Shown here piece by piece: positions 4,101 to 30,317 of a DNA stretch of 33,246 nt. The notes under the pieces were generated by a model, which did not search any database, was not told the DNA's origin, and saw only the letters and a program-made list of their open reading frames with translations. The stretch's first letter is position 1; every line of letters starts with the position of its first letter. The stretch is from positions 1-33,246 of the forward strand of contig JAUCBJ010000438.1 in NCBI GenBank assembly GCA_032718475.1. The letters are read 5' to 3'. The position numbers were made by a program, and so were the translations under genes. The stretch comes from Nemertoderma westbladi. Taxonomy: Eukaryota > Animalia > Xenacoelomorpha.

Positions 4101-4540
4101 TGTAACGACCAATTAGAAGGCTTAGCGATGCTCGAAGTGAATTATTACCATATATGGTATTATTAGGGAGGTATGGTAAATAGAGGGAGGTAGATAGGGA
4201 GGTAATCCTACTGACAGCCATCAAGCAATAACCACATTTACCAGTAGGCTACCACAAGAACTGTTAAGGTAATATTACAGCAAGTGTTTCAGTGTACAAT
4301 GTAAATTGCTAGCTACAGTTGCTGAGACGAAATTCAATATGTAGTTACAAAGAAACAGTAGCCATAATTACCATATATGGTATTATTAGATTGGGTGACT
4401 AATCCGCACATGTACCCCGTAACCACCCACGCTGAATTAACAACTGTCCCCACCATCAATATGGTTTACAATTTTCTATATAAACGGAACGCTGTTTAAT
4501 ATTAAATCATCACTTCACCCATTTATCTTCACCCACTACT

Positions 4541-5071
4541 TTGCTCTATTCAGTCTATATTATGCCAAGACCGGTCCAAGCTATTAGTACTGTTGATCAT
4601 GTACAAGTTACCTTTCAGCTGCGGTCTGGGAGAACATTTGAAACCCATAACGCACAGGAGGTAATGGCAAATTGGGACAATAAACCTTGTTTCATTGTAC
4701 TTGTATTTGGAAGCAACGATCTGTGTGTGAGAGACACAGATTACGTTGTCTCCAAATTAAAGACATTGATTCAGGAATATTCTTCCAATGGTGCTTCCTG
4801 TGTCTTATGGACACAAATGTTCCCAAGGTCAATGCGCCCTAAAGGTGTGTCTGTGGACCCCGATTATAATTCACGTCGTGTCGCCACAAATATGCGGATG
4901 GCGGCGTGGCTCGACCACGCCCAGAACGGCGTTCTAATTAAAATGCAAGGTGCATTATGGCATCGGGTGCAGGGAGGAACCTTGCTGCACTCTGATGGTA
5001 TACACCTGAGTGACCTTGGCCATGCCAAACTCTATAGCATCATCCGCCATGCTCTACTTGCTGTGGTGTAG
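4541..5071 (+). pseudogene. SGNH/GDSL esterase-like ORF lacking the N-terminal block; probably retrotransposon-derived
   Basis: Block III GSNDL and block V DGIH (SDGIHLSDLG) present; block I GDS absent; no introns. SGNH esterases occur in ORF1 of some non-LTR clades. Confidence 0.65.
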
Positions 5072-5999
5072 CGGCCACAAAAAATATAATATTGTTTTAT
5101 AGTGTTTTTTTTAGATATTGGTGAATGTTCTAGAACCTTAATAGATATTTTTTTATGGTAGCTAGTGTGTTTTTTTAATAGCTAGTATTTTTTGAAAAAA
5201 AAATGATAGATATTTCTATCTTTTCTAGAATTTTCTAGATATTTTATCTAGAAAGAGTTCTATCTATATTTAATATCACGTCACGACTTGAGGTTAATTG
5301 AATAACATCGGTTTCTGGTAGTTGTCTAAATAAAACGGCGGTTTCTGGTAGTTGTCTAAATAAAACGGCTAGAGTATGTTCGGGTGAGAAGTCGTCAACA
5401 TTTTCGTTCGCTCCATTTCTAAGTATATCTAAGAGTTCAGTAGATTTGGGCTTCTTAGCATAATATGTCTGGCAGGTAGTTCAGGGTGGTAATGTATACG
5501 AAATTAGAAATGTAGTGGAGAAACTTAGAAGAAAACCTCCCCAGTTAACATTTTGGGAACTAAATTTTGACACAATTTCCCATAATATAGAAACATTTGT
5601 TACAATTGTACTAGCTAACCAAACAATTATTGGTTCTTGAGTCTTATAACTGATATGGACTGGGTTCTGCCCTAAACCGCAAACGTTGGAATGGCAGTTT
5701 GATAAAGTAAGTGATAAAGTAAAGTAAGTTTTCTTGTATTTGTCTGTTCTCCTGTTAAAGTATCTCTTACTATAGTTTTTCGAAGTGATACACTATCACC
5801 CAATGGCACTGATGCTGAATTCGCCAAACAATCGTAGTTTTGGTTAGCTGTTGCTCCACTTGTCATACTTAGTAAAGATAGACCGGTTGCAGGGTATATC
5901 AGATAAATGTAATATTTTATTTTATTTTTATATATTTAATATTATATAATAAATAATGTATAATGTAATTATAGTGTTAATTATAATAAAGTATAAACA

Positions 6000-6240
6000 G
6001 GTCTAGTGATGACATTCCTGGGCATCCAATTACGAAGCTCTGGTTCGATCCCTAGATGGGGCAGCACTGTTTCGGCACAGTGCTTTAAATGCTGCAGCCT
6101 AGCCCAACACTGGCTGGCTTTCATCCTTCAGTGGTCGATAAATGGGAACCAAAGCAACTTGGGAAACAGAGTGCAATGATTTACTGTGGATGATCATCCA
6201 TCGTGGTGAACTTGGCTTAATGAGCCTAAAAGATTCTCCC
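6000..6240 (+). mobile_element. tRNA-derived SINE with Nin/Deu-like core
   Basis: A-box-like GGTCTAGTGA, B-box GGTTCGATCCC, then GCTTTCATCCTTCAGTGGTCGATAAATGGGAACC, which resembles the Nin/Deu core consensus as I recall it. Confidence 0.6.
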
Positions 6241-6699
6241 ATTCATTATGTATAATTAGATTTATTATAAACATGCCTGGCCTTTATTTGGTGGGATTCC
6301 AGATTTTTCCTTAACTATCAGAATCAGGCTTAATGTAGCTTCCCAGATCAATCAGGTTTATCATAGATTTATCATTTATCATTTATTTATCATAGGTTTA
6401 TCAGGTTTATCAAGATTTCCTAAGAATATTCCCTGAATTAGAAATACAAAGATATGGCCCTAAAACCCAAAACAAATATATTAAATGGCCTTCCTGGGAA
6501 AATACACCCATGTTAGATTGAGTTAGTTAAATTTATTAACAGTGGCCCTATAAAAATATCAAAATATATAAAATGGCCTTTTAGATTTACAGTAAATATA
6601 TTGCAGCCAATTGGAAAATATAATTTGGCAATTGGCAATTACGATTCCCCGTACTTAGTTCCAATTTAAGCCTCATGCGAATTTAGTTCCAATGGAAAA

Positions 6700-6873
6700 G
6701 AATTTAGTTCCAATGGAAATGATCTCGCATGATATGAACTCTGGCGTCTTCAGGTACACCATTGACCAAGGTAGCCCCCAGCCGAGGATGTACCACCCTC
6801 TCCCTCCGTGTAATTCCAACTCGTTGTTGACATGGTCGAGGGCATTGAGATCTGGGATCATCCGTAGTTGCGT
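6700..6873 (-). pseudogene. Last recognisable exon of unknown gene, copy A (GWxxxGW motif)
   Basis: Acceptor ttttaag then TQLRMIPDLNALDHVNNELELHGGRGWYILGW; after a frameshift ...DARVHIMR. Aligns with the 9920-10183 ORF (LNAWAHVVEELYWYGDCGWHVFGW...AARIHIIR), 12/24 identical in the core. Confidence 0.55.
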
Positions 6874-7352
6874 CTTAAAATTTTAAACATAAGTTCATTA
6901 TAAAATTAACCCTTTCGAGATCCTGCCCTATGCGGGCTGCCACTTTTAGAGGGTACTGTGGACAAGCAATATTATATTTATATACTGCCATCTGAAATAT
7001 CCCGTAATCCATATAGGATGCCAATGAATAGCATGTCATTTTTTATCATTTTGTCACATTAGATGTTGACCAATTTTTTGAATCTTATGGCTGTGTTGTC
7101 TGTATCCGAAAAGATTGAGCCTTACCATGCCACGGTGTCCGGACAATTGTGACCCGGACAATTGCGACCCATGATTTTTTGTTGCGGTTGGCCCTACATT
7201 ATTCGCAATTAGATATTCTGGAATATTTTGAATTAAAATTAACATTTAACCTAAAGAAATTGAAAGTTATGTTTTTCAATCTTCGTTCTACACAAAATTC
7301 CACAGGCTTCTCTAACAGAAGCATCTAATACATATTCTAAATTAGAGCAACA

Positions 7353-8770
7353 CTAATAGATTGTTGGTACGTTCTCATTTATCTGTGGTAAAAGCGCTTT
7401 ATTATATCATAGGGTTTTGGATAATTGACTCACTGCACTTGCTTTCTGACCTTTCACCGGGAAGTTGAACAACTAGGCGGCCGTGAATTGCTGCACAGCC
7501 CATTATATAAATACGCCTGAAGTTAGCGAGGAACCCCTCTAGTTCATTATTGTTACAAACGGCTAAGAGGAATATTCTCAGCATGAATTAATCTTGCGAT
7601 ATTCTTGAGTTTAGTCAAGGTACTAGGCAAATATTCCTCCCAATTGGTAATTCCGACCGATTCTATTATTTGCATTGCCAAAGCATGTATTATGCTGGCA
7701 GTTTGAATTTGAACTCTTGATAATCCGCGATTGTGTCGGATTTTAACTGGCCACATTCCCAACTGGTAACAAATTACTGATATATCATTCCGTATTCCCT
7801 CTGGTTCCCTATAATGAAATAAGGTAGAGTCATGATAAACCTCTTTAGCTTTTCCGGCTACGTACCGATATATCATCTGAAACACTATTAACTATTAAGG
7901 GTAACTTAGATGAGTCGCTGTTTAAGTGAGCAGGGCCCTTAATAACGGCACCGTGGATCATCCTCGAAGACTTTCCGTCAACAATTTCAGTGGTTATTAT
8001 CGGCAGAACGACAATACCATCATTTTGGTTGTACATGTAAGATGCTACGGGACGTAACATTGCTTCATACATACTAATAAACTCATCCCCAATGCTGGGG
8101 CTGAAGGTTGACAATATCTGTTCACTGACGCTAATTGCCTCATCATCTACAGAATTATATGATCTCCTCCCAATTGGTGGGAGATTGCTGTCCAGGTTGT
8201 CTGAGCCGAGATAGGCTACAAATTCCTCCACAATAGGATCAGCTTTTGCTGAAGGAATCTTGAAGTTATGCAGCTCTAAGCCTTCGTCTAGGAAAACCCT
8301 TTTCCTCGACTCATTTGCTCTTCCTACGCCGAATAGCTTTCTCTCAGCCTTTGATAAGGATTCATTTTGACGCCTTGGTTCTTTGATGTTATTCACCCAG
8401 TGTGGTAAGCATTTCCTTCTTATTAAGTCTTCAAATTCACGATTGGTGTCTTGATTTGGAACCAGTCTTGACATTAGATTTACACATGCCTTTATATTAG
8501 TAGTTTGATCCATCAAGGGAGCTTTTTTCATCCTGAGGGGGAACATTGTCTTCCAGGTCATTTTACACCCTTCAGATAGAGGTGTTTTATCAGCGTGTGT
8601 CAAAAGGTCGAAATTACCCCTTGGCTCGTACATCCTTCCTATTGCAATATGCAGGCACTCCTTGCGTAGGTCCATCTTCTTTATGCGGCATTTTTCAAAA
8701 TCTTTATTAGGATCAACTGTATTCTGATTGAACAGTGACATTACTTTGTCTGGAATCTCCAATACTTGAG
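7353..8770 (-). pseudogene. PA: Endogenous viral element: orthomyxovirus-like polymerase acidic (PA) subunit, C-terminal part, frameshifted
   Basis: Three consecutive ORFs (8762-7845, 7885-7553, 7584-7402) carry PA-C motifs in the correct order: HGAVIKGPAHLNSDSSK (influenza YGFIIKGRSHLRNDTD), LAMQIIES (LQQIES), ELEGFLANFRRI (QLEGFSAESRKL), CSESIIQNPMI (IEECLINDPWV). No introns. Confidence 0.85.
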
Positions 8771-9741
8771 TGTTATAGCACCATTTTTTAACCCTACTTT
8801 TGGAACTACCTATTTTTCGGTGTGTCTGCGAGGAATGACAAAGTATCCTAACTAAAGTCCCTACACAGTGTTTTGTCAGTTTTAAGTTCAGTAAAAGGCG
8901 TCATTCCCAAGTCATTAGGATGAGCCAAATGGCAAACTGTAATTGTGGTACTGGTCCAACCCCCTGTCCCGTGTCGTGTAATTTTGCCATTGGAACAGAG
9001 CCTCATCACATGGTACAGTCATCACCCCCCGTATGCAGTCATTTACGTCCTCTGTATCATACCGTGGTGTCCGTGGTGACGTCATTTGCTCCACAAATTC
9101 CAGAACCAGAAAGGCGCGGTTGGTAACGGACTGAGCAATATCGGATCTGTTCTCTAAACAAGAGTCTCCGATTTTCCCAGCCGCTCGTCAACCACATGGC
9201 AATCTGGGTCCGAAATTAATGAGGTAGAGGAGATACCAAAGTACCCACCTATCCCCTTAAATAGAGTTTGTATGTAGTTCTTGTTGTATTACTATTAGGT
9301 GGTTTGTAACAAGTGATATTAGCAGTAGGCGCCAGTTCAGAAATCATAGTGATAAGTGAAGCTCTGGAAATGGGAGTCCCCAGCTAGTAGTATGTGGTGT
9401 TGGTAAATAGATGGACAGGAGCGTAGGTGTTGTAGGTCTAGATAAGTAATGTTAGATAGAATAAAACGGTTCTGTAGTCATCGCTGTATATGAGGCATAG
9501 TGCAATGCAAGTAAGTAGTGTAGTAGTGTAGTGATAGTGGAATGGAAATAGGCCTTGTGAGTAAAGCAAGCAAAAGTGCAGCAAGAGCAGAAGAGTAACA
9601 CACAAATTTTTGCACACTACATTTATCCCTTGATAAATGTAAACTGATGTTGAAATTATATTCCCACATTAATCATTCCTACATTATTCCTATATCATTC
9701 CTACGCCATCTGCTTTGATTATCCAATGGCCATTGAGGCCC

Positions 9742-11357
9742 CTAACATGACATGGTGGTCTGTGATTGGCTTATGGTTATCCAATCTGGCCTAGCCAAAT
9801 TTTCCATACCATGTACACTGTAGAGGTGGAGGGAAACGTCCTGGGCGACCTGGTGGTGTACACCATGACCCTGGATGGCATGGTGGGGAGCACCCTGGGA
9901 TGGGAGCATCCTGGGCAACCTAGGGGTTTGCACCCTGACCCTGGGCGATGTGGCGGGGAGCACCCTGGGCAACATGGAGGGGAGTGTCCTGGGCAACATA
10001 TGTTCTAAATTCGTGCTCCCGATTGGTTGGCACTATCCTGATGATGTGTATTCTGGCAGCCATCATCATCGCTTCCACATTAGTGGCTGACTTTGCCCAC
10101 CCGAATACATGCCACCCACAATCTCCATACCAATAGAGTTCCTCAACCACATGGGCCCAGGCATTTAATTTACGGCCGTTCACAAAAGATTCTATTAAAG
10201 TGTTACGGGACCAGGGATGACGCCATTGATCGTTATTACAGGTAAATTTATTATAATAATCCCATACATAATAATATTCTTAAAAGCAAAATTAATTATA
10301 AGAGTATGAGAATCAGAGATCAATCTGTGATCAATCAATAGTCGCGGATTTTAAAACCGCACAAGGAAATAGCATACGTTTTCCACATCCTAACAGTCTT
10401 AATTCATCCAGCAACTTGCTACGTGGTACCCTATCGTATGCTTTAGAGAAATCTATAAAACAAATAAATAATTTATATTTTTTATATATTGCAAAATCAA
10501 TGATAAGATGTAATGACAAAATTTGTTCCAAGCAGCCCCACTTTGGTTGCCCTCGGAATGCTTATTTATTTTTGATTTTGTGCCAAATAAGAAAATAAAC
10601 TTCCCAACTAAATCCAACAGCAACAAAATAAACCCAACAAAATCCCAACTAAACTCCGGATCCATTAAATATGATGTAAGGCGGGAACACTCTTCCATTG
10701 TCTTCTATTCCCAATTATTTAACTTTCGACTCATATAATTGGAAGAAGTTCTCAATTGCTGTATTGTTACATGCAGTTGCCCTTGCAATGGTAAAGGCAA
10801 TGGTTCTGAACATCAGCCGAAGTTGAAGGAGGTAGTTGCTAAACCTGGAGCCTCTGCATTATGGTGGGTCATAAAACTCAAAAGTCCACGAATTACGTAG
10901 GAACTTACCCAAAAGGTGAGGTTATGTGTTCATAAAACGTGGACTATATATATAATTACGATTAATTAGGATAATTATAATAGGATTATATAATAGGATT
11001 ACTATTATCTTTTATGAAAAATGCCCCGTTAAATTAGGGCTCCAAAACAGCCACTGTCGATCCAATCCCCATGTCATCAAATCTAAGAATGTTTGCAGGC
11101 CTCGCCAATGTTGTGGTAAACAGGAGGGCAATACTACCCCCAACATCTGCCAATACTATCGTTCTGTCGAACCGTTTCTCCATGGAAATGTTTGTACGTT
11201 TGCTGGCGTTTCGCATTTTGTTAAAATTCAATACAGTGGCAATGACCACTGTGTCATCCATGACTGGTTCATCACCCGTTAGAAGCCAAGCGCTTATCAC
11301 CCCATTGAAGGACCTCCTTTCGAAGGGATGTTCCCCAATCACCACAAAATCCATAAT
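9742..11357 (-). pseudogene. Unknown spliced gene, copy B (degenerate, interrupted by a LINE fragment)
   Basis: Acceptor ttatgcag before 11357; exon ...FDRTIVLADVGG...GIGSTVAVLEP parallels copy A DLISGETFAML...GVGSFLRIVEP. C-terminal piece 10183-9920 has GWHVFGW and VAQ(G/D)xP repeats. Confidence 0.5.
10360..10700 (-). mobile_element. Internal non-LTR reverse transcriptase fragment
   Basis: EQILSLHLIIDFAIYKKYKLFICFIDFSKAYDRVPRSKLL contains the RT motif (F)xDFxKAYD. Confidence 0.8.
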
Positions 11358-11428
11358 CTGCATAAAATAGTTGTAAATATTTCTATATTTTATATTTGTA
11401 TTTTATATTAATTAAGTAAATTCAATTT

Positions 11429-11825
11429 TTGACCAACCGTCGCGTCGTAGACGCAACGGTCGTAGACCCTCTAGCGCCCAGCCATCTCGCTACCAGTCTA
11501 TTCGCAGGAGGTCGTGTTGCCAAGGAGCAAGAAGAGACCCAATCCAGAAAGCAAGAAGAACTAGTAGACCGAGGATACCTCTTCGCACCAGTAGCCTTCG
11601 AAACCCTTGGCCGGCCAGGACCAGCAACAACCTCATTCCTGAAAGAGGTCGGCAGGAAGATTCGACAAGCAACACAGGAACCCCGGTCTCATCGATTCCT
11701 GCTGCAAAGACTCCTGATAGCCATCCTAATCGGCAACTCGGTCTCGATCCGAGGAAAAGTAGACTCCACTAACAATAGCGGCCTCTTCGACATACTTGAA
11801 GAACATTAATAATTAATAATTATTA
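11429..11825 (+). mobile_element. 3' end of an RLE-type (CRE-like) non-LTR retrotransposon, 5'-truncated
   Basis: VDATVVDPLAPSH...FAPVAFETLGRPG...LLQRLLIAILIGN is typical of the restriction-like endonuclease C-terminus; stop followed by a TAA/AAT-rich tail; GC-rich island in AT-rich flanks. Confidence 0.75.
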
Positions 11826-12855
11826 AACATAAATACAAAACATTTAATTTAATTTGATTATAATATAATTTAAAAATTTATTTGAATACAATCTAAATAT
11901 AATTATATTGAATATATAGTAAATTAATGAATTAAAATGAAACTTTATGACGTACAATATAACTACATAATTTATACCACATATTAAGGATAGGTGTAGA
12001 GCACATCCACCGTTGGAAATTCTCCAACATATTCCCCTCCCGACTCGAATCCCGAAATGGAAGTAGATATGTTCAACGTTGATGAGGTCAATGACGAGGA
12101 CATTGTAGCTACATTTGAACAAAAGGGAGTGGTTGGCCCTACATTATCCGCAATTAGATATTCTGGAATGTTTTGAATTAAAATTAATTGTTTTGGCATA
12201 ACCTACCTATATTGTTAACATTGTTCATGCAATATTTTTTTACTAGCTATTGATATAATCTATTTGAAATCTATAATGTTTTATAACTATTTATTTATGA
12301 TTGGGTCGCAATTGTTCGGGTCGCAATGGGGTAGACGAGATAATATTCTAGAATAATATTTATTCTAGAATAAATCGCGTGCCAGTTTCATGAATGAAAC
12401 TGGCACGCGATAAATGCAAGCGGCAGAAAATGACGTTTAAATCGCAAATTTACATTACCGCTAATGAACATTTCATGCTTATATGGGTCTCTGGTGCATG
12501 AAATGATTATCCTGATGCCACCAAAACTTGTCCAACACAAATATTCATCATTTGGAGTTAAAATCTGTAGGAATATTTTTTTTTAGTTTTTTTCAATTTT
12601 TCATGTTGAGCCACCTTAATAACTATTTATTCACAAAGAGTGACCAATACATTCTATTTGTAAAGTAATATATTTTATCTAATAAACTTTAATATTAGAG
12701 CTCTGTAAAATCAATATAGGGAAGAATGGAAAAGATATATACTTTATATGTCTAGACTCTTTCATTACACTGAAAGTCAACTTGTTTTCCGTTACAATAG
12801 ACACTGGTGCTTTACTTTACACATAAGGTACATTTCCTATTTATTTATTACTCAC

Positions 12856-14162
12856 TTCTAGGCGCGCTTTATCGAAGAATAATGAGGTAAACTCATTACT
12901 GCAGAAATAATGAGGGCGGATACGTCGTGACTCATTATCGAATACTTCCTCAAGCACAACATCGGCCTCCAACAACGGGGTCCACTATTCGAAAACAGGG
13001 ACATGGCCTACCGTAGTAGGTGCCCCTGCACACTGCCCCTCTGCATCCTTGGACGATGTTGATCTGTAAATATAAAATATATTGTGTGAAAATATATTAT
13101 AATATTTTCATATATAAAATACCTTTTAGGGTTAGCCACAAAATGACCACTATAATAAATATATCAGATTGAAAAAATGAAAAACTATAGATTGCGTTCA
13201 ATGTAGATTGCTATTTCTCAAGAATATTTTGCAGGTACAGCTTTCGTATTTAGTATTCTATATTACAAATTCAGAACATTGTTATATACATTTACAACAT
13301 ACTATTATTTTAAATTTTAGTAACTGTGGCCGGCCACGAGAAAAGGGACCTTATGTCGCAAAACCTGATTCTGAGATAATCGCGTTTAAAGTTTCCCTCT
13401 ATTTTTGAACAAATTTAATTGGATTATCAAGTTAGAAATGTATAAAACGATGCGGGAAATTCAAATTGGTTCTGATATTCAAGATACTGTACCTAGGAAA
13501 GAACTAATTACAGGAAGCAATATAAGATGTTGCAGTGTTGTATATAACACTGTTTTAGTGTTTTCCTGTCTGAATTTAGGACTTTAATAAAAGGTACTAA
13601 TACGGGTAGGTAGGAATAGAGCTACCCGAATCACCTTCACATAAATCGCTATAACTTTTTTTTGGAAATAGATATTGAGACACTGTTTTTTTTGTTAAAA
13701 TCTCTGTAAAATTCTGCATCTCATAGGCCTAATAACTCCAAATCGACCTCTGGTAACATAAGGTCCCTTTTCTCGTGGCCAGCCACAACTGTGTGTTGAG
13801 TTATGACATTAAAGAATAAACATGACAATAAACTCACCCGTTGTAACTGCAATGATTCTAGTCGCATGTAAAAGCCTTTGAGTTCCTTCGATGAGCTTAT
13901 GAGGGATGGACGACTCGATACTAGGGGTATTGTCGGCGGGTCGTTCATCGGCTCCAACTTTGCGTCCGTGGTAATCACCGGTAGATTAACAATCGTGTTT
14001 GTTTGGGGTATCACTGGTAGATTAACAATCGTGTTTCCAGTGGTTGTTGGTTCTACTATCCGTAAGAACGATCCGACGCCAACTCCAGCAGAGTGAAAAT
14101 ATAACGCCGTAGTATGGGGATGCTCAGCCAACATGGCAAATGTCTCACCACTAATTAAATCT
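12856..14162 (-). pseudogene. Unknown spliced gene, copy A, exons 14162-13838 and 13063-12856
   Basis: Canonical splice sites (tttcag, cgg|gtgagt, tttacag|atc, gaa|gtgagt) join in phase 0: ...GFYMRLESLQLQR|INIVQGCRGAVCRGTYYGRPCPCF, one frameshift, then ...FCSNEFTSLFFDKARLE. Confidence 0.6.
13326..13786. mobile_element. MITE with ~31-bp TIRs and 4-bp TSD AACT (possibly Sola-type)
   Basis: GTGGCCGGCCACGAGAAAAGGGACCTTATGT ... ACATAAGGTCCCTTTTCTCGTGGCCAGCCAC, flanked by AACT at 13322-13325 and 13787-13790; lies inside an intron of copy A. Confidence 0.85.
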
Positions 14163-15199
14163 CTGAAAAAATTTCCAAAAATATTAATGTTAGTGCAGTA
14201 GTGTAAAAATAATTATAATTATTAGGGTTCAAATGTTATTTATTGTTAATATATTTCAGTATTTAATCTTTATAAAATATATGTTCAGCTACAGTAAAAC
14301 GTGATATATTTTACTTTATGGTCATTTTGGTCAAGCTAAATTGTAATTTAACAGTCTAAATGATGCTATGGTATTTTTATAATTCCTGAAAATCTAATCC
14401 TTTGTTTCACGTCTGTTAAATGTATATTAAGTGGGTAACATATTATTTCAAAAAAGGTATTAATTTCAATATTCAATTTATTTAATTAATAAATTGAATT
14501 TACCAATAGAATATCTAACAATAATAATTATAAATCAATTATTAACTCTTTAAGTTTAGACCTTAGGCCTGTAATAACCACCAGTCAATTAAACTTGACC
14601 GGGGATCAGTGCCTCTTCATGGGCAGTGCGACTTCTGTCAAACAATAACAAAAAGAGTAAATCAATCATAGAACAATTGCACTTACTGTATATACCAGCA
14701 TATCAGTAAGGAGCATAGCCAATAAGCATCACGTATTCAATTTGAGGCTTAATAGGCCTTTACAGTACAATTTAGATAGAATATAGGTATAATAGCACTA
14801 GATGGCGTTAGAACCTTTACTAAATAATAATTTGTAAGAAATAATCAATATGACACTGTAACTGGTCCTTTATCAATAAATATACAGTATTTTGGGTAAA
14901 TTGGTAAAATAAGTAATTTTAAAGGCAGGATTTATAACTGCAGCAACAACCCCCCCCCCCCCCCCCCCCCACCCCCCCTTCCAATTCCCCCATCTGCTTG
15001 TATTGGTCAAAGAGTGTCCTGCCTACTTGTTATCGACTGTAATCTAATGATGATTGGGGTTTTCTAAATTTTTCAACCCGGAAAATATTTTTTGTTCTGT
15101 AATTACAGTATTTATTATAATGTAGCTCATAAATTCTGGAACCTTTTGCATAGAGTCCCTCCTCCCCACTACTCGCACTATCTAGGAAATATCAAGGTG

Positions 15200-17500
15200 A
15201 TCATGTGATCGGCCCCTCCTTCAAAAAACGTTTTACAACATTCTTAAAACGTTCAATTCCAACCTTTTTTATATCGGAAAATTGGGACGACAACTGAGTG
15301 CTGCCAATACCTCTGGCTGGCAAGGATAGTGTGGTGTCGCAAATTGGAGAGGAGGCTACGACGTCTTGCCACCTTTTGATGGGTGCAGCCATATGCCTCG
15401 AGTGGGAAGTGTCTTTGTCGGTGTTACGCGCTGTTGCGGCGTTAGAGAGTTTCAGGCAGTTTGTCCTCATCTCATAAACGATGCCACCAACCTATAGAGC
15501 TCTTCCCATTTCTCCATGGTTCATGGAAGGCCGTGTGGATGCAGGTGTTTAAGCATCTGGTGTACGCCTTCTAACACGTAGTCGGCCCTTTCACCATTCA
15601 CGGATGTTAGCGTTCTCCTAAATGTCGAATTAGAATCTAAATAATTAATAATGTTTTTAGGAAAGCGTAGGCGTTGGCAGGCCATGTATGCCACTATTTT
15701 TTGATAATGCGCATGTCCCCGCGCAAAGAACAGTGGAGCAAACTTCACTATGGCACACATAATCAAATCTGCACGATTCCTACGGATACCAATACGCAAT
15801 ATCATAATGGCTAAAAGAAACGTGGTGTTGAACTGCAGGAGTGCCACAAAGCCATCATTAGGACAGTTGTCCATAAACTTCTGCAGTTCAACAATAGTTT
15901 CAGTTTCTGAAAGTGTCTCCTTAACTGTTAAGAAAAATTTTCTTAACTGTTCGCGAGTAGTCCCGATTAAAGCAATTTCTATGGCTTCCCATGATTTGTG
16001 GTGATCGGTGGCTCATCGACAACTCCTTAGCCACCCTAGGCTGTTGAATCCATTTGTCGTTGCAAGCAACTCGAACTCAAGCTCCCAAGCGGCGGCAGTG
16101 GCAGCTTTTGTTCCAGGTGTCCCAGACATGGAACCAGAAGGTATTTATCTGCCCAACTCGGGATGTCTTTAATTGCGTTTAACATTAGATTCATTGGACA
16201 GCCGTCCATAACCAGAGTCGCCCATTTCCGAGTGCCATCAATATCTGTTAAAAACAACAAAATATATTTAAAGAGGGCGCGTGCACCCTTTATAAACGAC
16301 TAAGCTACACTTGTGCCGCACACAATGCGACATAAACTAGGTGCCGACACAATGCGACATACACTAGGTGCTGACGCTGTCGACATACACTAGGTGCCGA
16401 CACAATGCGACATACACTAGGTGCCGACGCCATGCCGACATACACTATTTGCGGACGCCATGCCGACATACACTAGGTGCCGACACAATGCGATCAAAAT
16501 TACACAATCAAAATTTTAATCAATTATCCATAAATAAAACATTGATATGTTTACAATATAAATATTAAATATTTAAGATTCAAAACCTACCTGCCAAGTT
16601 CCCAACTTTATTCAGCATTTCCGTTACTTTCTCGAAACTACAAAAGGGTCCTCTGGCAAGGGAGCATGAATATAAATATCAGCAATTGGGGGACCAGTTC
16701 TTTCGTCAAGTACTCCCCACATAACAGCTCCATCTATTAGACACTTGTAGGTCGGATTGTTAAAATGTGTGTTACAGTTCTTATGTTTTAGGACATGCAA
16801 TTCCATGAGTAGAAAAATTGCCCGAAGATCTCGAAAAAGTATCTCATTATATAAAGTCGAAAAAGTATCTCATGAATTTGTCGACAATCCCAGGAATCTC
16901 GTCTGGCTGCAGATCAATACATGTCAAAGCTTCACCCTGAATAGCCATGGTCGGGTTGTTAACCATACTAATGACTGAACAGACGTTTGTAACTAGTTGA
17001 GACTAATGATTATAGGAATGATAGGTTTTGCCAACGAATTGATTATTATCAAGAATAACCATAATATCCCCATTTGGACACATCGTTATAGTATGCGCCG
17101 ACGTCTTGAGGAGACGCAGTAGTGTTGTATAGTGTGGATGTGCAGAACAGGTGCTACGTACCAACTGCGAATTCTTTGAGTTATCACCCGCATAAGATAT
17201 TGCACTCCCGGTTGTGGCCAAATGGCCGCAATAATTTTTGTTTATAGTCGACATTAATAATTCAAAAATCTTCCCAGTAACAATCTTTTTCCGCTTAAAA
17301 TCAGAAGTTACCTTTCCAGCACCAGTAGATACTAGAGTTGCGGAGAGTAATAGTACAGAAGATTGTACACAACATGCCTCTACATATTACTGACTTTAAG
17401 GAAGTTGATCGAGCGAGAATGGATATCGCACCTTGCGTCTTGAGGGGATATTTGACGAGGACAATCCATTTATGGATCGGAGTTGGTTTTATTGTCATTT
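15200..17500 (-). pseudogene. Decayed DUF6589/Academ-like DDE transposase with an intron (16590-16245)
   Basis: Ordered fragments GHLATTGSAISY, VILDNNQ, RKWATLVMDGCP, LVPCLGHLE, FAPLFFARGHAHYQ, GERADYVLE. A GT-AG intron joins NKVGNLA-DIDGTRKW in frame. Many stops and frameshifts. Confidence 0.55.
16303..16493. repeat. 27-28-bp minisatellite (GCCGACACAATGCGACATACACTAGGT), about 7 copies
   Basis: Directly visible; lies within the inferred transposase intron. Confidence 0.85.
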
Positions 17501-19327
17501 TCGAAATAGCGGTTTAAAAAAAGCAAAACCTGCAAAGTGGAGGTGGACTTGTTTTAGTGTCAGTATATTAAAATTACTGTAGTATAATTAAAATTACTGT
17601 AGTATAATATTATACATGATATAACTATTTTATAATAACATTGTTTAAATTTTAGATTGATATTGTATCTACTCATAACGGCGCGCTATGTAAAGGTATA
17701 TATGGGTTATACCACAAGTGCCCATGTGTGTACGGTATAAGGCGTAAGTTATAAGGCATAAGTTAGCCAATCAAAAACTATGGGTAATAGAATGTGACTT
17801 AGTACTTCCAAATTTACCTTTGGATGCTGACGGAAAAGATTTGAGATTAAATGCATTCAAATCCAATGACTTTACCGCCATGTTCATTGGGAATGCTGCA
17901 ATGAATGTTAGTTAATTTTATTAATAAAAGTTTTAAAAATTAATAAATTATTTTACAGTTATTTTTTTTGATCGTCAACATGAAATTTTATGGAAATTTT
18001 GTCTGTTTCTCCGTTATGTTTTTGTTAAACTATATAAATACTTACTCCCCTCCCTCCCACCATTATTATCGAGGTATGTACGACTGTCCTGACCCTCCCA
18101 AATGTTGAAGTATGTATGATTTTGGTGTATGATTTATGTACTAGTAGCCTCGCCTAACTTTTGAGATATGTGTGAGAATATGTATGAGAATTATGCCACT
18201 ACAACTCCTTCCCATCTCCTCCCCATTTTTTGAGTTACGATATTTCCGACTACAATTTCCCTTTAAGTGTTACTGCTGCGGTAGATCCGAATACATACCG
18301 TATTCGGTATGTATACGCATATTGTTGATATGTTTGACAAAATTAAATAAAATATATCTAATAGAATCCACATAATCAAGACATGTCTGTTCATACACAC
18401 GACAGTGCTATGGTGGTGCTGGTGGCACCTACTACCAGTACAAGTAAACCACATAATGGAGTCTACAGTATGTGCTTGGCTTCCCAGAGAGAGATAGACA
18501 CTAGGGCGGTGCGTTTTTTACTTTTTTTCGATTTCATTGTTCTACCGGTGCACAAAAGTTGCCAAATGGTAAAAAAATAAGGCAAAAAAAATTCTTTAAA
18601 TTTCATCTATATCTTCACGGATCCCAAGAGGGTTGAAATTTTGTGCCATCGCGATGCACCATAATGAAATTTATAACAATATAACACATTGATGAAAGAT
18701 CAATGACTCAAAAAAGAACTTCCTGCATGCATCAAATGGGTCCAAACTTAGTTATATACCTAAATTTAATTTTTGGATCAAGGGAACTAGTGCCACAGGC
18801 ACATGGCCAGAACCTACCATTTGGCGCAAGTGATGATTATTCTCAATTTTCGCGATGGCCAACTTTGAGTTCTCCTTCTGCATTCATATTATGCTCATTA
18901 GAACCGCAATGTCCGATTTAGTGGGGGTAGACACCTTCAAAACAAACGTAGAGTGAATAGTTCTTGAGATATCACAGAAAATGTGAAGTACGGCACAAGT
19001 CTACATTACCGCCTTGATGTGATATGGACAAATACACTATAAATGATATATTGAATTATCTCAAGGAATCAAGAATAGACACATCACAGAAATGATCGAT
19101 ATAATGGGTGATGACACCTTCAAAATAAGAGTAGAGTCATTAGTTTTTGAGTTATTTTACAAAATGTCAAGACTATATCCACCAATTAATACTTGATATT
19201 CAGTTGACCCATTCCACACATTTTGTACAAAAACTATACTGAATTAATCACTACTCTTTAATTTTGAAGGTCCCTGTATACACTAAATCAATTTGTTGCA
19301 GTGATGTGTATATTTTTGATGCCTTAA

Positions 19328-20892
19328 CCCTATTAAACCCGGGGGGGGGGGTCAATATGACCCCCCCGTGGTTTTTTTATTATAATTCTGAAACAAACGC
19401 AGTTGGGTATCTGAAATTTTATGACTTTTCCTAAAAATCTATTGTCTTCATGGTAGTGAAAACCGTTTTCAAAAATATTGGGTACTTTTCGAGTTATAGC
19501 ACCATTTTTTAACCCTACTTTTGGCACTTTTTTTGAGACGTTTTTTGAAAATTACATTTCATTAAATATGAATTGTAACATCTCTATTTTTGATTTACAC
19601 CGGTTTTTTGGTGTTAGAAATTGGATGGAATTCATATAAATTGATTTAGAAATTTCAAACTTGTTTTTTTCGATGGGTGCCAAATTTTGGTTCCAGCACC
19701 AAATTTTGAAATAAGTCAATTTTGTAAATTGATTGTTTGAAACTTGTTTTTTACGCAATTGGGGTTTTTTGGGGTTCTGGATTCGATGAAATATATACGA
19801 GTTGCACCAAGCGTATCAAACTTGTATTTTTCGGTGCTGTGTGCAAATTTTGGTGCTAGCACGAAATTTTGAAAATCCATTCAATATATAAAATTGCTTG
19901 TGACAATTTATTTCTTGCGTTTTAGAGGTTTATGGCTGTTCTGAATTCAATGGAAAATATAATTATCGAACTAGTCATCTCAAACTTGTATTTTTCGGAA
20001 GTGGGTGCAAAATGTGGTGCAAGCACCAAATTTTGAAAACCATCAAATATATCAATTGATTGTGTCACCTTGTTTCTTGCGTTATACGGGTTTGTGATGG
20101 TTCTGAATTCAATGGAATCAGAAAAATTTCATAAGAGTTCTCAAACTTGTATTTTTCGCCGGTGGGTGAAAATTGTTGTGCCAGCACCAAATTTTGGAAA
20201 ATATGCAAATTGATCAGTAGATAGTATCACCTTGTTTCTTGCGTTATACTGGGTTACGAGGGTCCTGAATCCGATGGAATCAATAAAAACAGCACTGGAC
20301 ATCGCAAACTTGTACTTTTTGGTGATGGGTACGAAATTTGGTGCTAGCACCAAAATTTGCCAAATTACGCCGAAAAATACAGGTAGCAATGATCTGGTAT
20401 ATTAGAAATGTATTCCATTAGAATCAGCTCCCTCGAAAACCTGAAAATGTGAATTTATAGCATCGTATAAGTGAATTAAAAATTTTGTGTTCTAACTGAA
20501 AAGTGCTGGTTACTTGTTTTTTTCATTTTTTTCCTACGCAGAGAGGACTAAACAGCCATTTATAGTAATCATATCATTTTTAAATATTTTCCAATGTATT
20601 TTGCACCCCAAAAAACCTGTATTGAAAAATAATTAGCCGAAAATGTTACCGGTACTTTCAAATTTTGTGAAAATTGTGCACTACTTGTAATTTTGGTGCT
20701 GCAATATAACCACCCCAGTACATTTTTTCGAAAATTTTTTTTTTCGGACGGATCCAGACAAGTGATACCTACGTACAAACAAAAAATCAGACGTTTTCGT
20801 AAATATTTGTAGATTTTAGAGGGGGGGGGGGGGGGTCAATATGACCCCCCTCCGGTATTTGTACAACATTTTATAGCCCGGTACTAATAGGG
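19328..20892. mobile_element. Non-autonomous piggyBac-type element nested in the hAT element
   Basis: TTAA TSD (19324-19327, 20893-20896); termini CCCTATTA...TAATAGGG; subterminal palindrome GGGGGGTCAATATGACCCCCC near both ends. Confidence 0.85.
19655..20360. repeat. Five diverged ~162-bp tandem units inside the piggyBac-type element
   Basis: caaacttgt.tttt..g...gcaccaaa recurs at ~19655, 19816, 19980, 20141, 20303. Confidence 0.75.
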
Positions 20893-23442: not shown

Positions 23443-24481
23443 TGGTTATTATTTTTTTTTTAATATTCTTTAATCCATGCTAACGTACGCCCATAGTAAA
23501 ACATAATTATTAATACATAACATACACAATACATACAAGCACGATAAACCACAAGTAACATAAATTAATATGTAGGAAAAAATATATTAAGGCGAAGCGC
23601 GAACCTGCTTGTATGAATAGTGGCCAATGTAACCGCCCGTATTTGTCGACACGGTGGAACAACGAATTTATTGCATTGAATCTAATGTGACAAAATTTGG
23701 GTAAGTTGAGTTCCCCGAACATCAGTGAAACGCTACAGGCGTAGCTGTACCCGAATAGACGCCTAGCAATATTGTTATAGCCAACGCGCAGTTTATTATA
23801 TATGCTGAGACTGAGATTTCGCCTGGACCACAATGCATTGCAATAAAATTGCGTACAAAAGCATTGGAACAATTTACGCTTGATAGTTCTAGAACAAAAT
23901 TTAAATTTAGAAATAAGCAGATTCCCACGTTTATACAAACTATGAAGTTGATTTAAAATATCAAAGTTATCATCTGTTGAGTTATGTATTATGTGACCCA
24001 AGTATTTGTATTTAGAAACAGTCTCCAATTTCGAACAATTAACAGTAATATTGTTTGCAAGTAAATTTTTATTTGTTTTAGGTGTAAATATCATGAGCTT
24101 AGATTTTTTGACATTCACTTTAATGGAATGGGAATCTGCATATTTTTCATATATCTGTATAAGAGTGTTGAGCCCATGTATAGAATTAGAAGCCAAGGCT
24201 AGGACATCAGCATATATAAGTGGTTAGCCCGCTGGCCACTGACAACACAGCCGACGCTTGATTCGGTGAACTCGACACTGAGATCATCTACATAAAGGTT
24301 GTAGAATCTCGGTGACAAGATCCCGCCCTGTTTCATACCGTTGGATACGGTGAACGAAACAGACACGCAACCTCCCCACCGGACAGAAAGATGTTGAAAT
24401 CTGTACCAAAACCGTATAATGCGAATAAAAAATAATGGAACATTCCTGTCGATAAGCTTCGAAAATAATTTGTAATGACAA
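23443..24481 (-). mobile_element. Dead non-LTR retrotransposon (CR1/L2-group-like), RT C-terminal half
   Basis: NGMKQGGILSPRFYNLYVDDL; catalytic motif degraded to YADV with a 2-bp frameshift; KYKYLGH. Ends abruptly at the TCAC array. Confidence 0.85.
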
Positions 24482-25437
24482 TCACTCACTCACTCACTCA
24501 CTCACTCACTCACTCACTCACTCACTCACTCACTCACTCACTCACTCACTCACTCACTCACTCACTCACTCACTCACTCACTCACTCACTCACTCACTCA
24601 CTCACTCACTCACTCACTCACTCACTCACTCACTCACTCACTCACTCACTCACTCACTCACTCACTCACTCACTCACTCACTCACTCACTCACTCACTCA
24701 CTCACTCACTCACTCACTCACTCACTCACTCACTCACTCACTCACTCACTCACTCACTCACTCACTCACTCACTCACTCACTCACTCACTCACTCACTCA
24801 CTCACTCACTCACTCACTCACTCACTCACTCACTCACTCACTCACTCACTCACTCACTCACTCACTCACTCACTCACTCACTCACTCACTCACTCACTCA
24901 CTCACTCACTCACTCACTCACTCACTCACTCACTCACTCACTCACTCACTCACTCACTCACTCACTCACTCACTCACTCACTCACTCACTCACTCACTCA
25001 CTCACTCACTCACTCACTCACTCACTGACTCACTGACTCACTGACTCACTGACTCACTGACTCACTGACTCACTGACTCACTGACTCACTGACTCACTGA
25101 CTCACTGACTCACTGACTCACTGACTCACTGACTCACTGACTCACTGACTCACTGACTCACTGACTCACTGACTCACTCACTCACTCACTCACTCACTCA
25201 CTCACTCACTCACTCACTCACTCACTCACTCACTCACTCACTCACTCACTCACTCACTCACTCACTCACTCACTCACTCACTCACTCACTCACTCACTCA
25301 CTCACTCACTCACTCACTCACTCACTCACTCACTCACTCACTCACTCACTCACTAACTCACTCACTCACTCACTCACTCACTCACTCACTCACTCACTCA
25401 CTCACTCACTCACTCACTCACTCACTCACTCACTCAC
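24482..25437. repeat. Array 1: (TCAC)n-(TGACTCAC)n-(TCAC)n
   Basis: 8-mer block at ~25026-25177; single TAAC variant at ~25354. Confidence 0.95.
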
Positions 25438-26835
25438 TTTGGCTAAAGTTGCTACATTCTGTTTTACTAATGGATGACACAGCGGTGCTTGCAACAAATA
25501 GATTGGCCGCTTTGGCCAAGCTGGATATACTAATTAATTTTTGCAAGTCTTCTGGTATGACATTGAACGAGAAGAAATCGATGTTTATGGTGATAAACGG
25601 CACTCTGAGTGACAGGGAAGATATCATTCTGGAAGAGTATACCATAAAACATACTTCATCATATATTTATCTTGGCTCACCAATCACCAGTGATGGTTTA
25701 GTATCAACTGCAGTATCCCTCCATGCATCTGCGAAACAATGCCATCGGCTTAAGTACAGTTCATTTCTAATGAAAAACCCGGACATTCCGTTTATGATTA
25801 AAAAACAAGTGTTCAATGCAGCAGTGGTGTCAGCAATAACATATGGTTGCGAAACGTGGTTAGGTGCTAATCTGAATGACGTCGAGGCTCTATATATGTC
25901 AATGGTAAGGAGTTTGCTAGGTGTTAGACCCACCACGTGTGGAGACATATGTCTCATTGAAGCGGGAATCCCTGACTTGAAATCGTTGGTACGTGAGAGA
26001 CAACGAAAGTTCCTTACTAAATTCAAGGTTATTGAAGACTCCCCTCTTGCTGTCGCAATAGAAATATCGAAAGATGGTAACACATCGATGTCCGCGAAAA
26101 TAGATTCTTTGAAATCAGAACAGCGTAATGTTATAGACGAAGGTTCCCGACTCGTCAAGAAAAACGTTTCACTTTCAACGAGTACGAAACGCCACCTGTT
26201 CAAGCTAATGAACCCGGACCTAACTTCCCCCCAGCTCTATTGTGACCCCTCAGTTCCCGAACGTCATCGCATCCCCTGGACCCGTTTTCGGCTGGGTAGC
26301 CATAACTTCCCAGTAGAACGGATGAGATGGAAGAGGGCTAAACCCGAGGACCGAGTTTGTGGATGTGGTGGGATTCAGACCGAAGCCCATATAGTTGTAG
26401 ATTGTCCTATGACAAGGACGTTAAGACGAGAATGCGCCCCCCTGTCTTGGTTATCTATGACTGAGATGTTCTGTCTGGATAACCAAGCCAAAATAGCAAA
26501 ATTTATCTCAAAATTAGATAATGTATTCGATTGAGTAAACAGCCCGATATATGTAATGTTTGATATATTTAGTTAGTATTATGTGTGTTTGTGTGTTTGT
26601 TGGGAATATAAATATATGTTACTCTACTATGTATTACATCTGGTCCTCACACGGCTATAATGTTGTCTATATAAGCATCTGTAATATTTTTGTATGATAA
26701 TGTGCTGTCTTATTTTGAGGGTGACGGTAGATATTTTGATTTGTACGTCTCATTTTGTATCTTGTTTAGTGCATATTACCGATGTTAGTTATGTAACAGT
26801 TAATGTGAAGACAATAAACAATCAATCAATCAATC
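25438..26835 (+). mobile_element. 5'-truncated LINE (possibly RTEX-like), copy 1; ORF 25449-26534 uninterrupted
   Basis: RT motif LMDD, YIYLG, C-terminal RFRLGSH..RVCGCG..EAHIVVDC zinc knuckle, ~290-bp 3' UTR, AATAAA, (AATC)4 tail. Confidence 0.9.
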
Positions 26836-29800
26836 ACTCACTCACTCACTCACTCACTCACTCACTCACTCACTCACTCACTCACTCACTCACTCACTCA
26901 CTCACTCACTCACTCACTCACTCACTCACTCACTCACTCACTCACTCACTCACTCACTCACTCACTCACTCACTCACTCACTCACTCACTCACTCACTCA
27001 CTCACTCACTCACTCACTCACTCACTCACTCACTCACTCACTCACTCACTCACTCACTCACTCACTCACTCACTCACTCACTCACTCACTCACTCACTCA
27101 CTCACTCACTCACTCACTCACTCACTCACTCACTCACTCACTCACTCACTCACTCACTCACTCACTCACTCACTCACTCACTCACTCACTCACTCACTCA
27201 CTCACTCACTCACTCACTCACTCACTCACTCACTCACTCACTCACTCACTCACTCACTCACTCACTCACTCACTCACTCACTCACTCACTCACTCACTCA
27301 CTCACTCACTCACTCACTGACTCACTGACTCACTGACTCACTGACTCACTCACTCACTCACTCACTCACTCACTCACTCACTCACTCACTCACTGACTCA
27401 CTGACTCACTGACTCACTGACTCACTGACTCACTGACTCACTGACTCACTGACTCACTGACTCACTGACTCACTGACTCACTGACTCACTGACTCACTGA
27501 CTCACTGACTCACTGACTCACTGACTCACTGACTCACTGACTCACTGACTCACTGACTCACTGACTCACTGACTCACTGACTCACTGACTCACTGACTCA
27601 CTGACTCACTGACTCACTGACTCACTGACTCACTGACTCACTGACTCACTGACTCACTGACTCACTGACTCACTGACTCACTGACTCACTGACTCACTGA
27701 CTCACTGACTCACTGACTCACTGACTCACTGACTCACTGACTCACTGACTCACTGACTCACTGACTCACTGACTCACTGACTCACTGACTCACTGACTCA
27801 CTGACTCACTGACTCACTGACTCACTGACTCACTGACTCACTGACTCACTGACTCACTGACTCACTGACTCACTGACTCACTGACTCACTGACTCACTGA
27901 CTCACTGACTCACTGACTCACTGACTCACTGACTCACTGACTCACTGACTCACTGACTCACTGACTCACTGACTCACTGACTCACTGACTCACTGACTCA
28001 CTGACTCACTGACTCACTGACTCACTGACTCACTGACTCACTGACTCACTGACTCACTGACTCACTGACTCACTGACTCACTGACTCACTGACTCACTGA
28101 CTCACTGACTCACTGACTCACTGACTCACTGACTCACTGACTCACTGACTCACTGACTCACTGACTCACTGACTCACTGACTCACTGACTCACTGACTCA
28201 CTGACTCACTGACTCACTGACTCACTGACTCACTGACTCACTGACTCACTGACTCACTGACTCACTGACTCACTGACTCACTGACTCACTGACTCACTGA
28301 CTCACTGACTCACTGACTCACTGACTCACTGACTCACTGACTCACTGACTCACTGACTCACTGACTCACTGACTCACTGACTCACTGACTCACTGACTCA
28401 CTGACTCACTGACTCACTGACTCACTGACTCACTGACTCACTGACTCACTGACTCACTGACTCACTGACTCACTGACTCACTGACTCACTGACTCACTGA
28501 CTCACTGACTCACTGACTCACTGACTCACTGACTCACTGACTCACTGACTCACTGACTCACTGACTCACTGACTCACTGACTCACTGACTCACTGACTCA
28601 CTGACTCACTGACTCACTGACTCACTGACTCACTGACTCACTGACTCACTGACTCACTGACTCACTGACTCACTGACTCACTGACTCACTGACTCACTGA
28701 CTCACTGACTCACTGACTCACTGACTCACTGACTCACTGACTCACTGACTCACTGACTCACTGACTCACTGACTCACTGACTCACTGACTCACTGACTCA
28801 CTGACTCACTGACTCACTGACTCACTGACTCACTGACTCACTGACTCACTGACTCACTGACTCACTGACTCACTGACTCACTGACTCACTGACTCACTGA
28901 CTCACTGACTCACTGACTCACTGACTCACTGACTCACTGACTCACTGACTCACTGACTCACTGACTCACTGACTCACTGACTCACTGACTCACTGACTCA
29001 CTGACTCACTGACTCACTGACTCACTGACTCACTGACTCACTGACTCACTGACTCACTGACTCACTGACTCACTGACTCACTGACTCACTGACTCACTGA
29101 CTCACTGACTCACTGACTCACTGACTCACTGACTCACTGACTCACTGACTCACTCACTCACTCACTCACTCACTCACTCACTCACTCACTCACTCACTCA
29201 CTCACTCACTCACTCACTCACTCACTCACTCACTCACTCACTCACTCACTCACTCACTCACTCACTCACTCACTCACTCACTCACTCACTCACTCACTCA
29301 CTCACTCACTCACTCACTCACTCACTCACTCACTCACTCACTCACTCACTCACTCACTCACTCACTCACTCACTCACTCACTCACTCACTCACTCACTCA
29401 CTCACTCACTCACTCACTCACTCACTCACTCACTCACTCACTCACTCACTCACTCACTCACTCACTCACTCACTCACTCACTCACTCACTCACTCACTCA
29501 CTCACTCACTCACTCACTCACTCACTCACTCACTCACTCACTCACTCACTCACTCACTCACTCACTCACTCACTCACTCACTCACTCACTCACTCACTCA
29601 CTCACTCACTCACTCACTCACTCACTCACTCACTCACTCACTCACTCACTCACTCACTCACTCACTCACTCACTCACTCACTCACTCACTCACTCACTCA
29701 CTCACTCACTCACTCACTCACTCACTCACTCACTCACTCACTCACTCACTCACTCACTCACTCACTCACTCACTCACTCACTCACTCACTCACTCACTCA

Positions 29801-30317
29801 CTCACTCACTCACTCACTCACTCACTCACTCACTCACTCACTCACTCACTCACTCACTCACTCACTCACTCACTCACTCACTCACTCACTCACTCACTCA
29901 CTCACTCACTCACTCACTCACTCACTCACTCACTCACTCACTCACTCACTCACTCACTCACTCACTCACTCACTCACTCACTCACTCACTCACTCACTCA
30001 CTCACTCACTCACTCACTCACTCACTCACTCACTCACTCACTCACTCACTCACTCACTCACTCACTCACTCACTCACTCACTCACTCACTCACTCACTCA
30101 CTCACTCACTCACTCACTCACTCACTCACTCACTCACTCACTCACTCACTCACTCACTCACTCACTCACTCACTCACTCACTCACTCACTCACTCACTCA
30201 CTCACTCACTCACTCACTCACTCACTCACTCACTCACTCACTCACTCACTCACTCACTCACTCACTCACTCACTCACTCACTCACTCACTCACTCACTCA
30301 CTCACTCACTCACTCAC
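26836..30317. repeat. Array 2: (TCAC)n-(TGACTCAC)n-(TCAC)n
   Basis: Main 8-mer block ~27394-29153; short block ~27318-27349. Confidence 0.95.

What the first reader, a model, noticed from the sequence alone, without database searches (positions are those of the whole stretch)
7353..8770. Endogenised orthomyxovirus-like PA segment with repairable frameshifts
Seen: three abutting minus-strand ORFs. The first frameshift is a 7-bp tandem duplication (TTAATAG x2, ~7885-7898); removing it gives KLPLIVFQMIYR. Knowledge: the motifs GxxIKGxxHLxxD, QxIES, LEGFxxxxRR and SIIQNP follow the order of the PB1-binding C-terminal domain of orthomyxovirus PA; the N-terminal endonuclease is missing. Inference: a segmented negative-strand RNA virus, which encodes no RT, was copied into the germline and may represent a divergent lineage (Thogoto/Quaranja-like or new).
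Basis: partly seen in the sequence, partly recalled or inferred. Interest (0 to 1): 0.85.

Follow-up and report, generated by a model that had tools for sequence, protein, structure and literature searches.

The report
Flu-family polymerase fossil in animal genome
A broken 1.4-kb copy of most of the PA polymerase gene of a distant influenza-family RNA virus sits among repeats in the DNA of what is likely an invertebrate animal, in samples from two studies; it was likely pasted in by a host jumping-gene enzyme, is likely decaying without function, and records a virus only about 25% like any found here.

Summary
Confirmed as an orthomyxovirus-like PA fossil. Three minus-strand frames match, in order, four full-length PA proteins (Xinjiang sediment orthomyxo-like virus 1, Barns Ness dog whelk virus, two unnamed) at 24-28% identity. 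The third piece hits a 622-aa PA in the PDB at E 4e-9. The endonuclease part is missing here, and a third break near 7405 is likely. The element lies between high-copy repeats and occurs in DNA contigs of two samples from two studies. The 7-base duplication is in one run's contig and absent from two. A second version of 8150-8770 differs by 1 silent, 16 amino-acid-changing and 1 stop change among 18 listed, which fits decay as DNA. That version runs on into 539 unread bases. Orthomyxovirus fossils, including one from PA, are published for insects and ticks, so this is a new member of a known kind. What is new is the lineage. Genus and host are unplaced. The scan had not noted it before.

The parts
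7845..8771 (-). Piece 1: PA linker region and first part of the PA C-terminal domain (part of the stop-to-stop frame 7845-8900), with the GxxIKGPxH motif
   Evidence: phmmer E 3.4e-15 to P0001, 28% identity; hhalign 99.4% to alignment A1; PDB 622-aa PA E 0.029
7553..7891 (-). Piece 2: middle of the PA C-terminal domain, in a second frame
   Evidence: hhalign 94.9%, E 4.4e-8 to A1; tblastn linked segments
7402..7587 (-). Piece 3: conserved C-terminal helices (LEGFLANFRR ... SIIQNP), in a third frame
   Evidence: hhalign 98.8%, E 5.6e-17; PDB 622-aa PA E 4.3e-9
7353..7401 (-). Possible last residues of PA beyond a likely third break; weak
   Evidence: six-frame reading; profile score -4.3 bits, not significant
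7884..7898 (.). 7-base tandem duplication at the first break; varies between samples
   Evidence: present in the X2 contig 7261-8178 (0 differences), absent from the X1 and X3 contigs (tables 4 and 8)
7243..7352 (.). Unassigned AT-rich stretch: viral 3' non-coding end or host DNA; a run of five A on the coding strand at 7272-7276
   Evidence: no poly(A) tail seen
7134..7242 (.). Left flank: high-copy host repeat
   Evidence: second copies at 12131-12187 and 12302-12327; depth about 15,500 against 16.6 in the element in X2
8772..8807 (.). Right flank: 36-base fragment of a very high-copy repeat, where the PA match ends in the window's version
   Evidence: 97% to 19493-19528; loose ends at 8772 and 8807 in all four runs' repeat contigs; bin depth 56,800 in X2
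8816..9260 (.). Moderately repeated host DNA
   Evidence: depth about 490 in X2; loose ends at 8816, 8928 and 9260; no Pfam hit above cut-off

Best explanation
This is a broken DNA copy of about two-thirds of the PA polymerase gene of an unclassified orthomyxo-like virus, lying between host repeats; it was likely reverse-transcribed by a host retrotransposon enzyme in the germline of a likely invertebrate animal, and is likely decaying as a non-functional fossil. Shown: PA homology of three pieces in order, frame breaks, no endonuclease part at this locus, repeat flanks, presence in two samples, a second diverged version. Inferred: (1) viral RNA reached a germ-cell nucleus and was copied by a host reverse transcriptase, since these viruses encode none (established knowledge); (2) the 5' part was lost or cut off where the 36-base repeat fragment now sits; (3) the element was duplicated or split into two haplotypes after insertion; (4) it has mutated without selection on the protein since.
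For: Four proteins of 636-674 aa hit piece 1 among 1.84 billion, all with E up to 3e-6. Two are named orthomyxo-like PA and all four hit Flu_PA, three above the cut-off. All three pieces align in order to them. Contigs from runs X1 and X3 (sample S1, 2019) and X2 (sample S2, 2023) cover the element. X1's contig spans 7235-8799 with no substitution, so the second and third breaks are shared with an independent sample. Both flanks are high-copy repeats with second copies in the window. The second version differs mostly at amino-acid-changing sites: 1 silent of 18 listed, against 21% expected without selection; two virus isolates would differ mostly at silent sites (established knowledge). It also has a 32-base gap and a short duplication. 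Weak reverse-transcriptase remnants lie at 10334-10561 and 23513-24450.
Against: No poly(A) tail and no target-site duplication were found (longest word shared by the two flanks is 7 bases), so the insertion route is not shown. The X1 contig enters the repeats by only 8 and 28 bases, short of the tool's 31-base rule for a bridge. The runs' DNA kind is guessed, and X2 may be the window's own source. Only 18 substitutions were listed (the table was cut), and Logan contigs can be mosaics of haplotypes. The host is not identified. The reverse-transcriptase hits are below Pfam's cut-off.
Confidence: 0.85

Rival explanations
1. The insert is kept as a template for antiviral small RNAs (piRNA-like). 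It would be transcribed with the surrounding transposon debris and cut into guides against the parent virus, so the protein decays while the RNA matters.
For: It lies in a patchwork of repeats and transposon remnants. EVE-derived piRNA-like RNAs are reported in a dog whelk (PMC6085071, passages). It is shared by two samples.
Against: There are no small-RNA data here. Substitutions, gaps and duplications accumulate between the versions. Repeat-rich surroundings are also where neutral inserts survive.
Confidence: 0.15
2. The element belongs to a co-sequenced organism (parasite, symbiont or food), or the joins to the flanks are assembly errors at repeats.
For: No listed contig spans the whole laid stretch; both junctions fall at high-copy repeats; the second version leaves the window's sequence at 8767-8770.
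Against: The X1 contig from another sample runs from the left repeat into the right repeat exactly as the window does. Depth in the element is of the same order as the least deep flank bins (X1 320 against 363; X2 16.6 against 11-30).
Confidence: 0.06
3. The host uses a truncated PA C-terminal domain as a decoy that binds viral PB1 and blocks polymerase assembly.
For: The part kept is the PB1-binding domain (established knowledge), and piece 1 is open over 293 codons.
Against: The conserved C-terminal helices are out of frame in all three runs that hold the element. 16 of 18 listed differences change amino acids and one makes a stop. The gene start is missing at this locus.
Confidence: 0.03
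4. It is sequence of a live RNA virus that entered the assembly as a contaminant.
For: The run kinds are guessed.
Against: Shared frame breaks across two studies, mostly amino-acid-changing variation and repeat flanks do not fit a replicating virus.
Confidence: 0.01

Closest known systems
PA of Xinjiang sediment orthomyxo-like virus 1 (UMO75721.1, P0001) and two unnamed JGI/IMG proteins (P0002, P0003)
   Same: Colinear match from about residue 245 to the C-terminal NP motif; 25.6-27.9% identity over 387 shared columns.
   Different: They are intact 660-674-aa proteins with the N-terminal domain; the window's copy is broken DNA lacking roughly the first 170-200 residues. The identity is as low as between most of these viruses, so it is a separate lineage.
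[quoted passage not shown]
   Same: 23.5% identity. [quoted passage not shown]
   Different: That virus was reported as an RNA infection of a mollusc; this is an inherited DNA remnant.
622-aa PA in PDB 8Z85 and 8P0B (Thogoto virus polymerase; virus name recalled, the tool gives only 'Polymerase acidic protein')
   Same: The only PA chains hit by the window's own pieces: E 0.029 and 4.3e-9. A profile with the relatives ranks them far above influenza-length PA chains (E 1.7e-40 against 4.7e-17 or weaker).
   Different: Piece 1 is much closer to P0001-P0004 than to this PA; membership of Thogotovirus is not shown.
Published orthomyxovirus-derived EVEs of arthropods (Aedes, PMC10956553 sections 13 and 21; Ixodes, PMC6580184 passages; Chilo suppressalis CsOrEVE2 from PA, PMC12810003 passages)
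   Same: Single-segment fragments, many with frameshifts or stops, some duplicated after insertion.
   Different: Those are mostly Quaranjavirus-like and 26-91% (Aedes) or 49-77% (Chilo) identical to known viruses; PA gave 0 of 223 Aedes matches and 1 of 13 Chilo elements. This one is about 25% identical and no hit was named Quaranja.

Membership tests
Orthomyxovirus-type PA (P3) subunit | Sequence homology to the PA C-terminal domain, motifs in order | tested here: met
Orthomyxovirus-type PA (P3) subunit | Direct Pfam Flu_PA (PF00603) hit | tested here: not met
   0 of 3 pieces at E up to 1; the four full-length relatives hit it. The pieces were scanned apart.
Orthomyxovirus-type PA (P3) subunit | N-terminal endonuclease-like domain | tested here: not met
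   No match to the relatives' first 215 residues next to the element; repeat DNA starts at 8772. The second version's 539-base continuation is unread.
Orthomyxovirus-type PA (P3) subunit | PA-C fold | tested here: inconclusive
   Both models of piece 1 unusable (mean pLDDT 32.8 and 35.9); no fold search run
Non-retroviral endogenous viral element | Present as DNA, inherited in more than one individual | tested here: met
   Contigs in 3 of 4 laid runs, 2 samples, 2 studies; run kind guessed as DNA
Non-retroviral endogenous viral element | Joined to host sequence on both sides | tested here: inconclusive
   The X1 contig enters the left and right repeats by 8 and 28 bases, under the 31-base rule
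Non-retroviral endogenous viral element | Mutational decay after insertion | tested here: met
   Frame breaks, a polymorphic duplication, 1 silent of 18 listed substitutions
LINE-type retroposed copy | Poly(A) tail and target-site duplication | tested here: not met
   Longest A run near the 3' end is 5-6; longest word shared by the flanks is 7 bases. Later insertions may have erased them.
Thogotovirus or Quaranjavirus | Groups with genus members in a polymerase tree | not testable with these tools
   No genus reference sequence could be fetched; the 5-taxon tree has no outgroup; PB1, the usual marker, is absent from the window

The most novel reading that the evidence does not exclude
This is the first genomic fossil of the unclassified aquatic and sediment orthomyxo-like viruses with Thogoto-like PA, in an animal outside insects and ticks. 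Its second version keeps the N-terminal domain in the 539 unread bases, a length close to the 510-600 bases missing here. It would tie a lineage known mostly from sediment and metatranscriptomes to a germline host, and allow a minimum age from copy divergence.
Probability: 0.3. Interest if true: 0.62.

Novelty: new member of a known kind. Interest (0 to 1): 0.42.

Why it matters
The deep branches of the influenza order are known almost only from RNA surveys, where the true host is uncertain (PMC10636315 and PMC12277240, passages). An inherited copy is direct evidence that a virus of this lineage infected this animal's ancestors. PA-derived fossils are rare in published surveys, and this one comes from a virus about 25% like any found. 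It shows no new mechanism.

Tried and rejected
No whole genome is held, so PB1, PB2, NP and GP fossils elsewhere could not be sought. In the window, frames of 62 aa or more in 1-24450 gave no viral Pfam hit (86 of 87 such frames scanned), a weak test since the PA pieces themselves miss Pfam. Word-based protein searches found nothing beyond P0001. Viral and metagenome contig scans gave no locus (one search counted 15 matches to P0003 but returned 0 loci), so segment ends of relatives could not be compared. The ESM Atlas gave no usable hit. Both folds were unusable. Rfam had no match in 5000-13000. No RNA holder listed; this says nothing on expression. Run X5 (same species label, 2016) had only repeat pieces laid; this is no proof of absence. 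A run of five A followed by about 17 bases at 7255-7276 recalls an orthomyxovirus segment end (recalled pattern), but six such A runs occur in 7130-8900, so I give it little weight. Piece 2 alone hit only Hsp70-like and talin chains in the PDB at E 0.3 or worse; rejected as chance. The frames at 8915-9187 and 9057-9215 as the missing N-terminus were rejected: they lie in repeated DNA and do not match the relatives. The supplements of PMC6580184 could not be seen; they may list PA-derived Ixodes elements.

Full report
Observation. The minus strand holds three overlapping stop-to-stop frames: 7845-8900, 7553-7891 and 7402-7587. A 7-base tandem duplication lies at 7884-7898, at the first break. 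It is the only perfect tandem duplication of 7-29 bases in 7353-8771. QxIES is not kept in the four relatives, so it carries no weight. The third frame stops two residues after the NP motif, while relatives go on for 16 or more residues. The stretch to 7353 is a fourth frame without a significant score, so a third break near 7405 is likely.

Identity. Piece 1 (311 aa as submitted) found 4 proteins at E up to 0.001 among 1.84 billion representatives: P0001-P0004, 636-674 aa, best E 3.4e-15. [quoted passage not shown] All four hit Pfam Flu_PA, three above the cut-off; the window's three pieces do not. Against the alignment of the four, the pieces give hhalign probabilities of 99.4, 94.9 and 98.8%. 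tblastn places them in order. Read through with X, the element scores 228.6 bits against 2.0 for the best of 200 shuffles. In the PDB, pieces 1 and 3 hit a 622-aa PA (E 0.029 and 4.3e-9) and no other PA chain; that this is Thogoto virus is recalled. Piece 2 alone hit no PA. Both structure predictions failed.

Extent. The match to P0001 begins at about residue 247 (window 8630). The alignment puts the element's first residue at about 170, and linear extension puts it at about 200. PA has an endonuclease domain of about 195 residues, a linker and PA-C in influenza (PMC10709604, passages), so this copy holds the linker region and PA-C. At 8772 a 36-base fragment of a very high-copy repeat begins (97% to 19493-19528). 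On the other side a high-copy repeat ends at 7242. The 110 bases at 7243-7352 are unassigned. No poly(A) tail or target-site duplication was found.

Other samples. Of 6 runs listed, 3 hold the stretch; 4 were laid on 6900-9400. X1 and X3 are one 2019 sample, X2 is a 2023 sample from another study and may be the window's source. X1 has one contig over 7235-8799 with no substitution and a single 7-base gap at 7884. X3 has the same gap, and X2's contig over 7261-8178 matches the window exactly. So the duplication is a young variant, and the later breaks are shared.

Second version. X2 holds two versions side by side at 8230-8355 (0 and 7 differences). X3's contig carries the same alternative letters, a 32-base gap (8348-8381) and a short duplication (8556-8574). 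Of the 18 substitutions listed within piece 1 (the table was cut), 1 is silent, 16 change the amino acid and 1 makes a stop. About 21% silent is expected without selection; the chance of 1 or fewer is about 0.08, by hand. This fits neutral decay as DNA and does not fit two virus isolates. In X2 only one version shows over 7320-7907, so the second version may be partial on that side. Beyond 8767-8770 it leaves the window's sequence: 539 unread bases in X2 contig 15 and 49 in X3. That is near the size of the missing 5' part, but this is only a lead. Contigs may be mosaics of haplotypes.

Lineage. Identity over 387 shared columns is 23.5-27.9% to the four relatives, which are 24-34% like each other. 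The unrooted 5-taxon tree has long branches, weak support (60) and no genus reference. No Thogoto, Quaranja or influenza sequence could be fetched for a tree. The dog whelk virus PA was likewise reported as similar to Thogoto viruses only (PMC7051039, whole text; PMC6085071, passages). Deep invertebrate clades are proposed from PB1 (PMC10636315, passages and a supplement term search; PMC12277240, abstract and passages). Neither named P0001 or P0004 in the text I saw, so I cannot assign a clade.

Host. The window is 30-47% GC outside long TCAC arrays, with repeats, weak reverse-transcriptase remnants and a GDSL-type frame. This fits an animal genome. An earlier unchecked note on the same genome calls it an unidentified animal (e1-10585783). 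'Invertebrate' is my inference; an arthropod host is not excluded.

Mechanism. Most likely (0.85): viral RNA was copied by a host retroelement reverse transcriptase in a germ cell, inserted in repeat-rich DNA, then truncated, duplicated or split into haplotypes, and left to decay. The copying step follows from established knowledge and is not shown; which retroelement did it is open. A role as a small-RNA template can hold alongside this (0.15). A decoy protein (0.03), a foreign or mis-joined source (0.06) and a live-virus contaminant (0.01) are unlikely.

Novelty. Orthomyxovirus EVEs are known: 223 matches in Aedes, none from PA (PMC10956553, sections 13 and 21); 19 in Ixodes scapularis (PMC6580184, passages; supplements not seen); 13 in Chilo suppressalis, one from PA (PMC12810003, passages). 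Searches showed no orthomyxovirus EVE from this lineage or outside arthropods. For most listed papers I saw only the listing, and subscription journals are not covered. The scan's own notes hold no such finding. Verdict: a real, degraded PA-derived EVE from a divergent lineage; new member of a known kind; interest 0.42.

Noticed in passing
window 4484-5071 (+): Open 195-aa frame hitting Pfam Lipase_GDSL above the cut-off (E 1.4e-7); such esterase domains occur in some retrotransposons (recalled).
   Followed up: partly
window 10334-10561 (-) and 23513-24450 (-): Weak reverse-transcriptase remnants (RVT_1 E 0.0022, 0.00025 and 0.0011, all below cut-off).
   Followed up: partly
window 11420-11809 (+): 129-aa frame that recalls the C-terminal endonuclease of R2/CRE-type non-LTR elements (recalled; no Pfam hit).
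   Followed up: partly
window 19324-20359: Longer copy of the repeat whose 36-base fragment flanks the element; it starts TTAA-CCC like a piggyBac-type end (recalled) and includes a 162-base tandem array at 19816-20359.
   Followed up: partly
window 24482-33246: Long TCAC microsatellite arrays fill much of the last 9 kb.
   Followed up: no
window 15521-16012 (-) and 13721-14212 (-): Two 163-aa open frames with no Pfam hit above cut-off; unexplained.
   Followed up: partly
window 9237-9272: One X1 contig skips 34 bases here, a variant of the repeated DNA right of the element.
   Followed up: no
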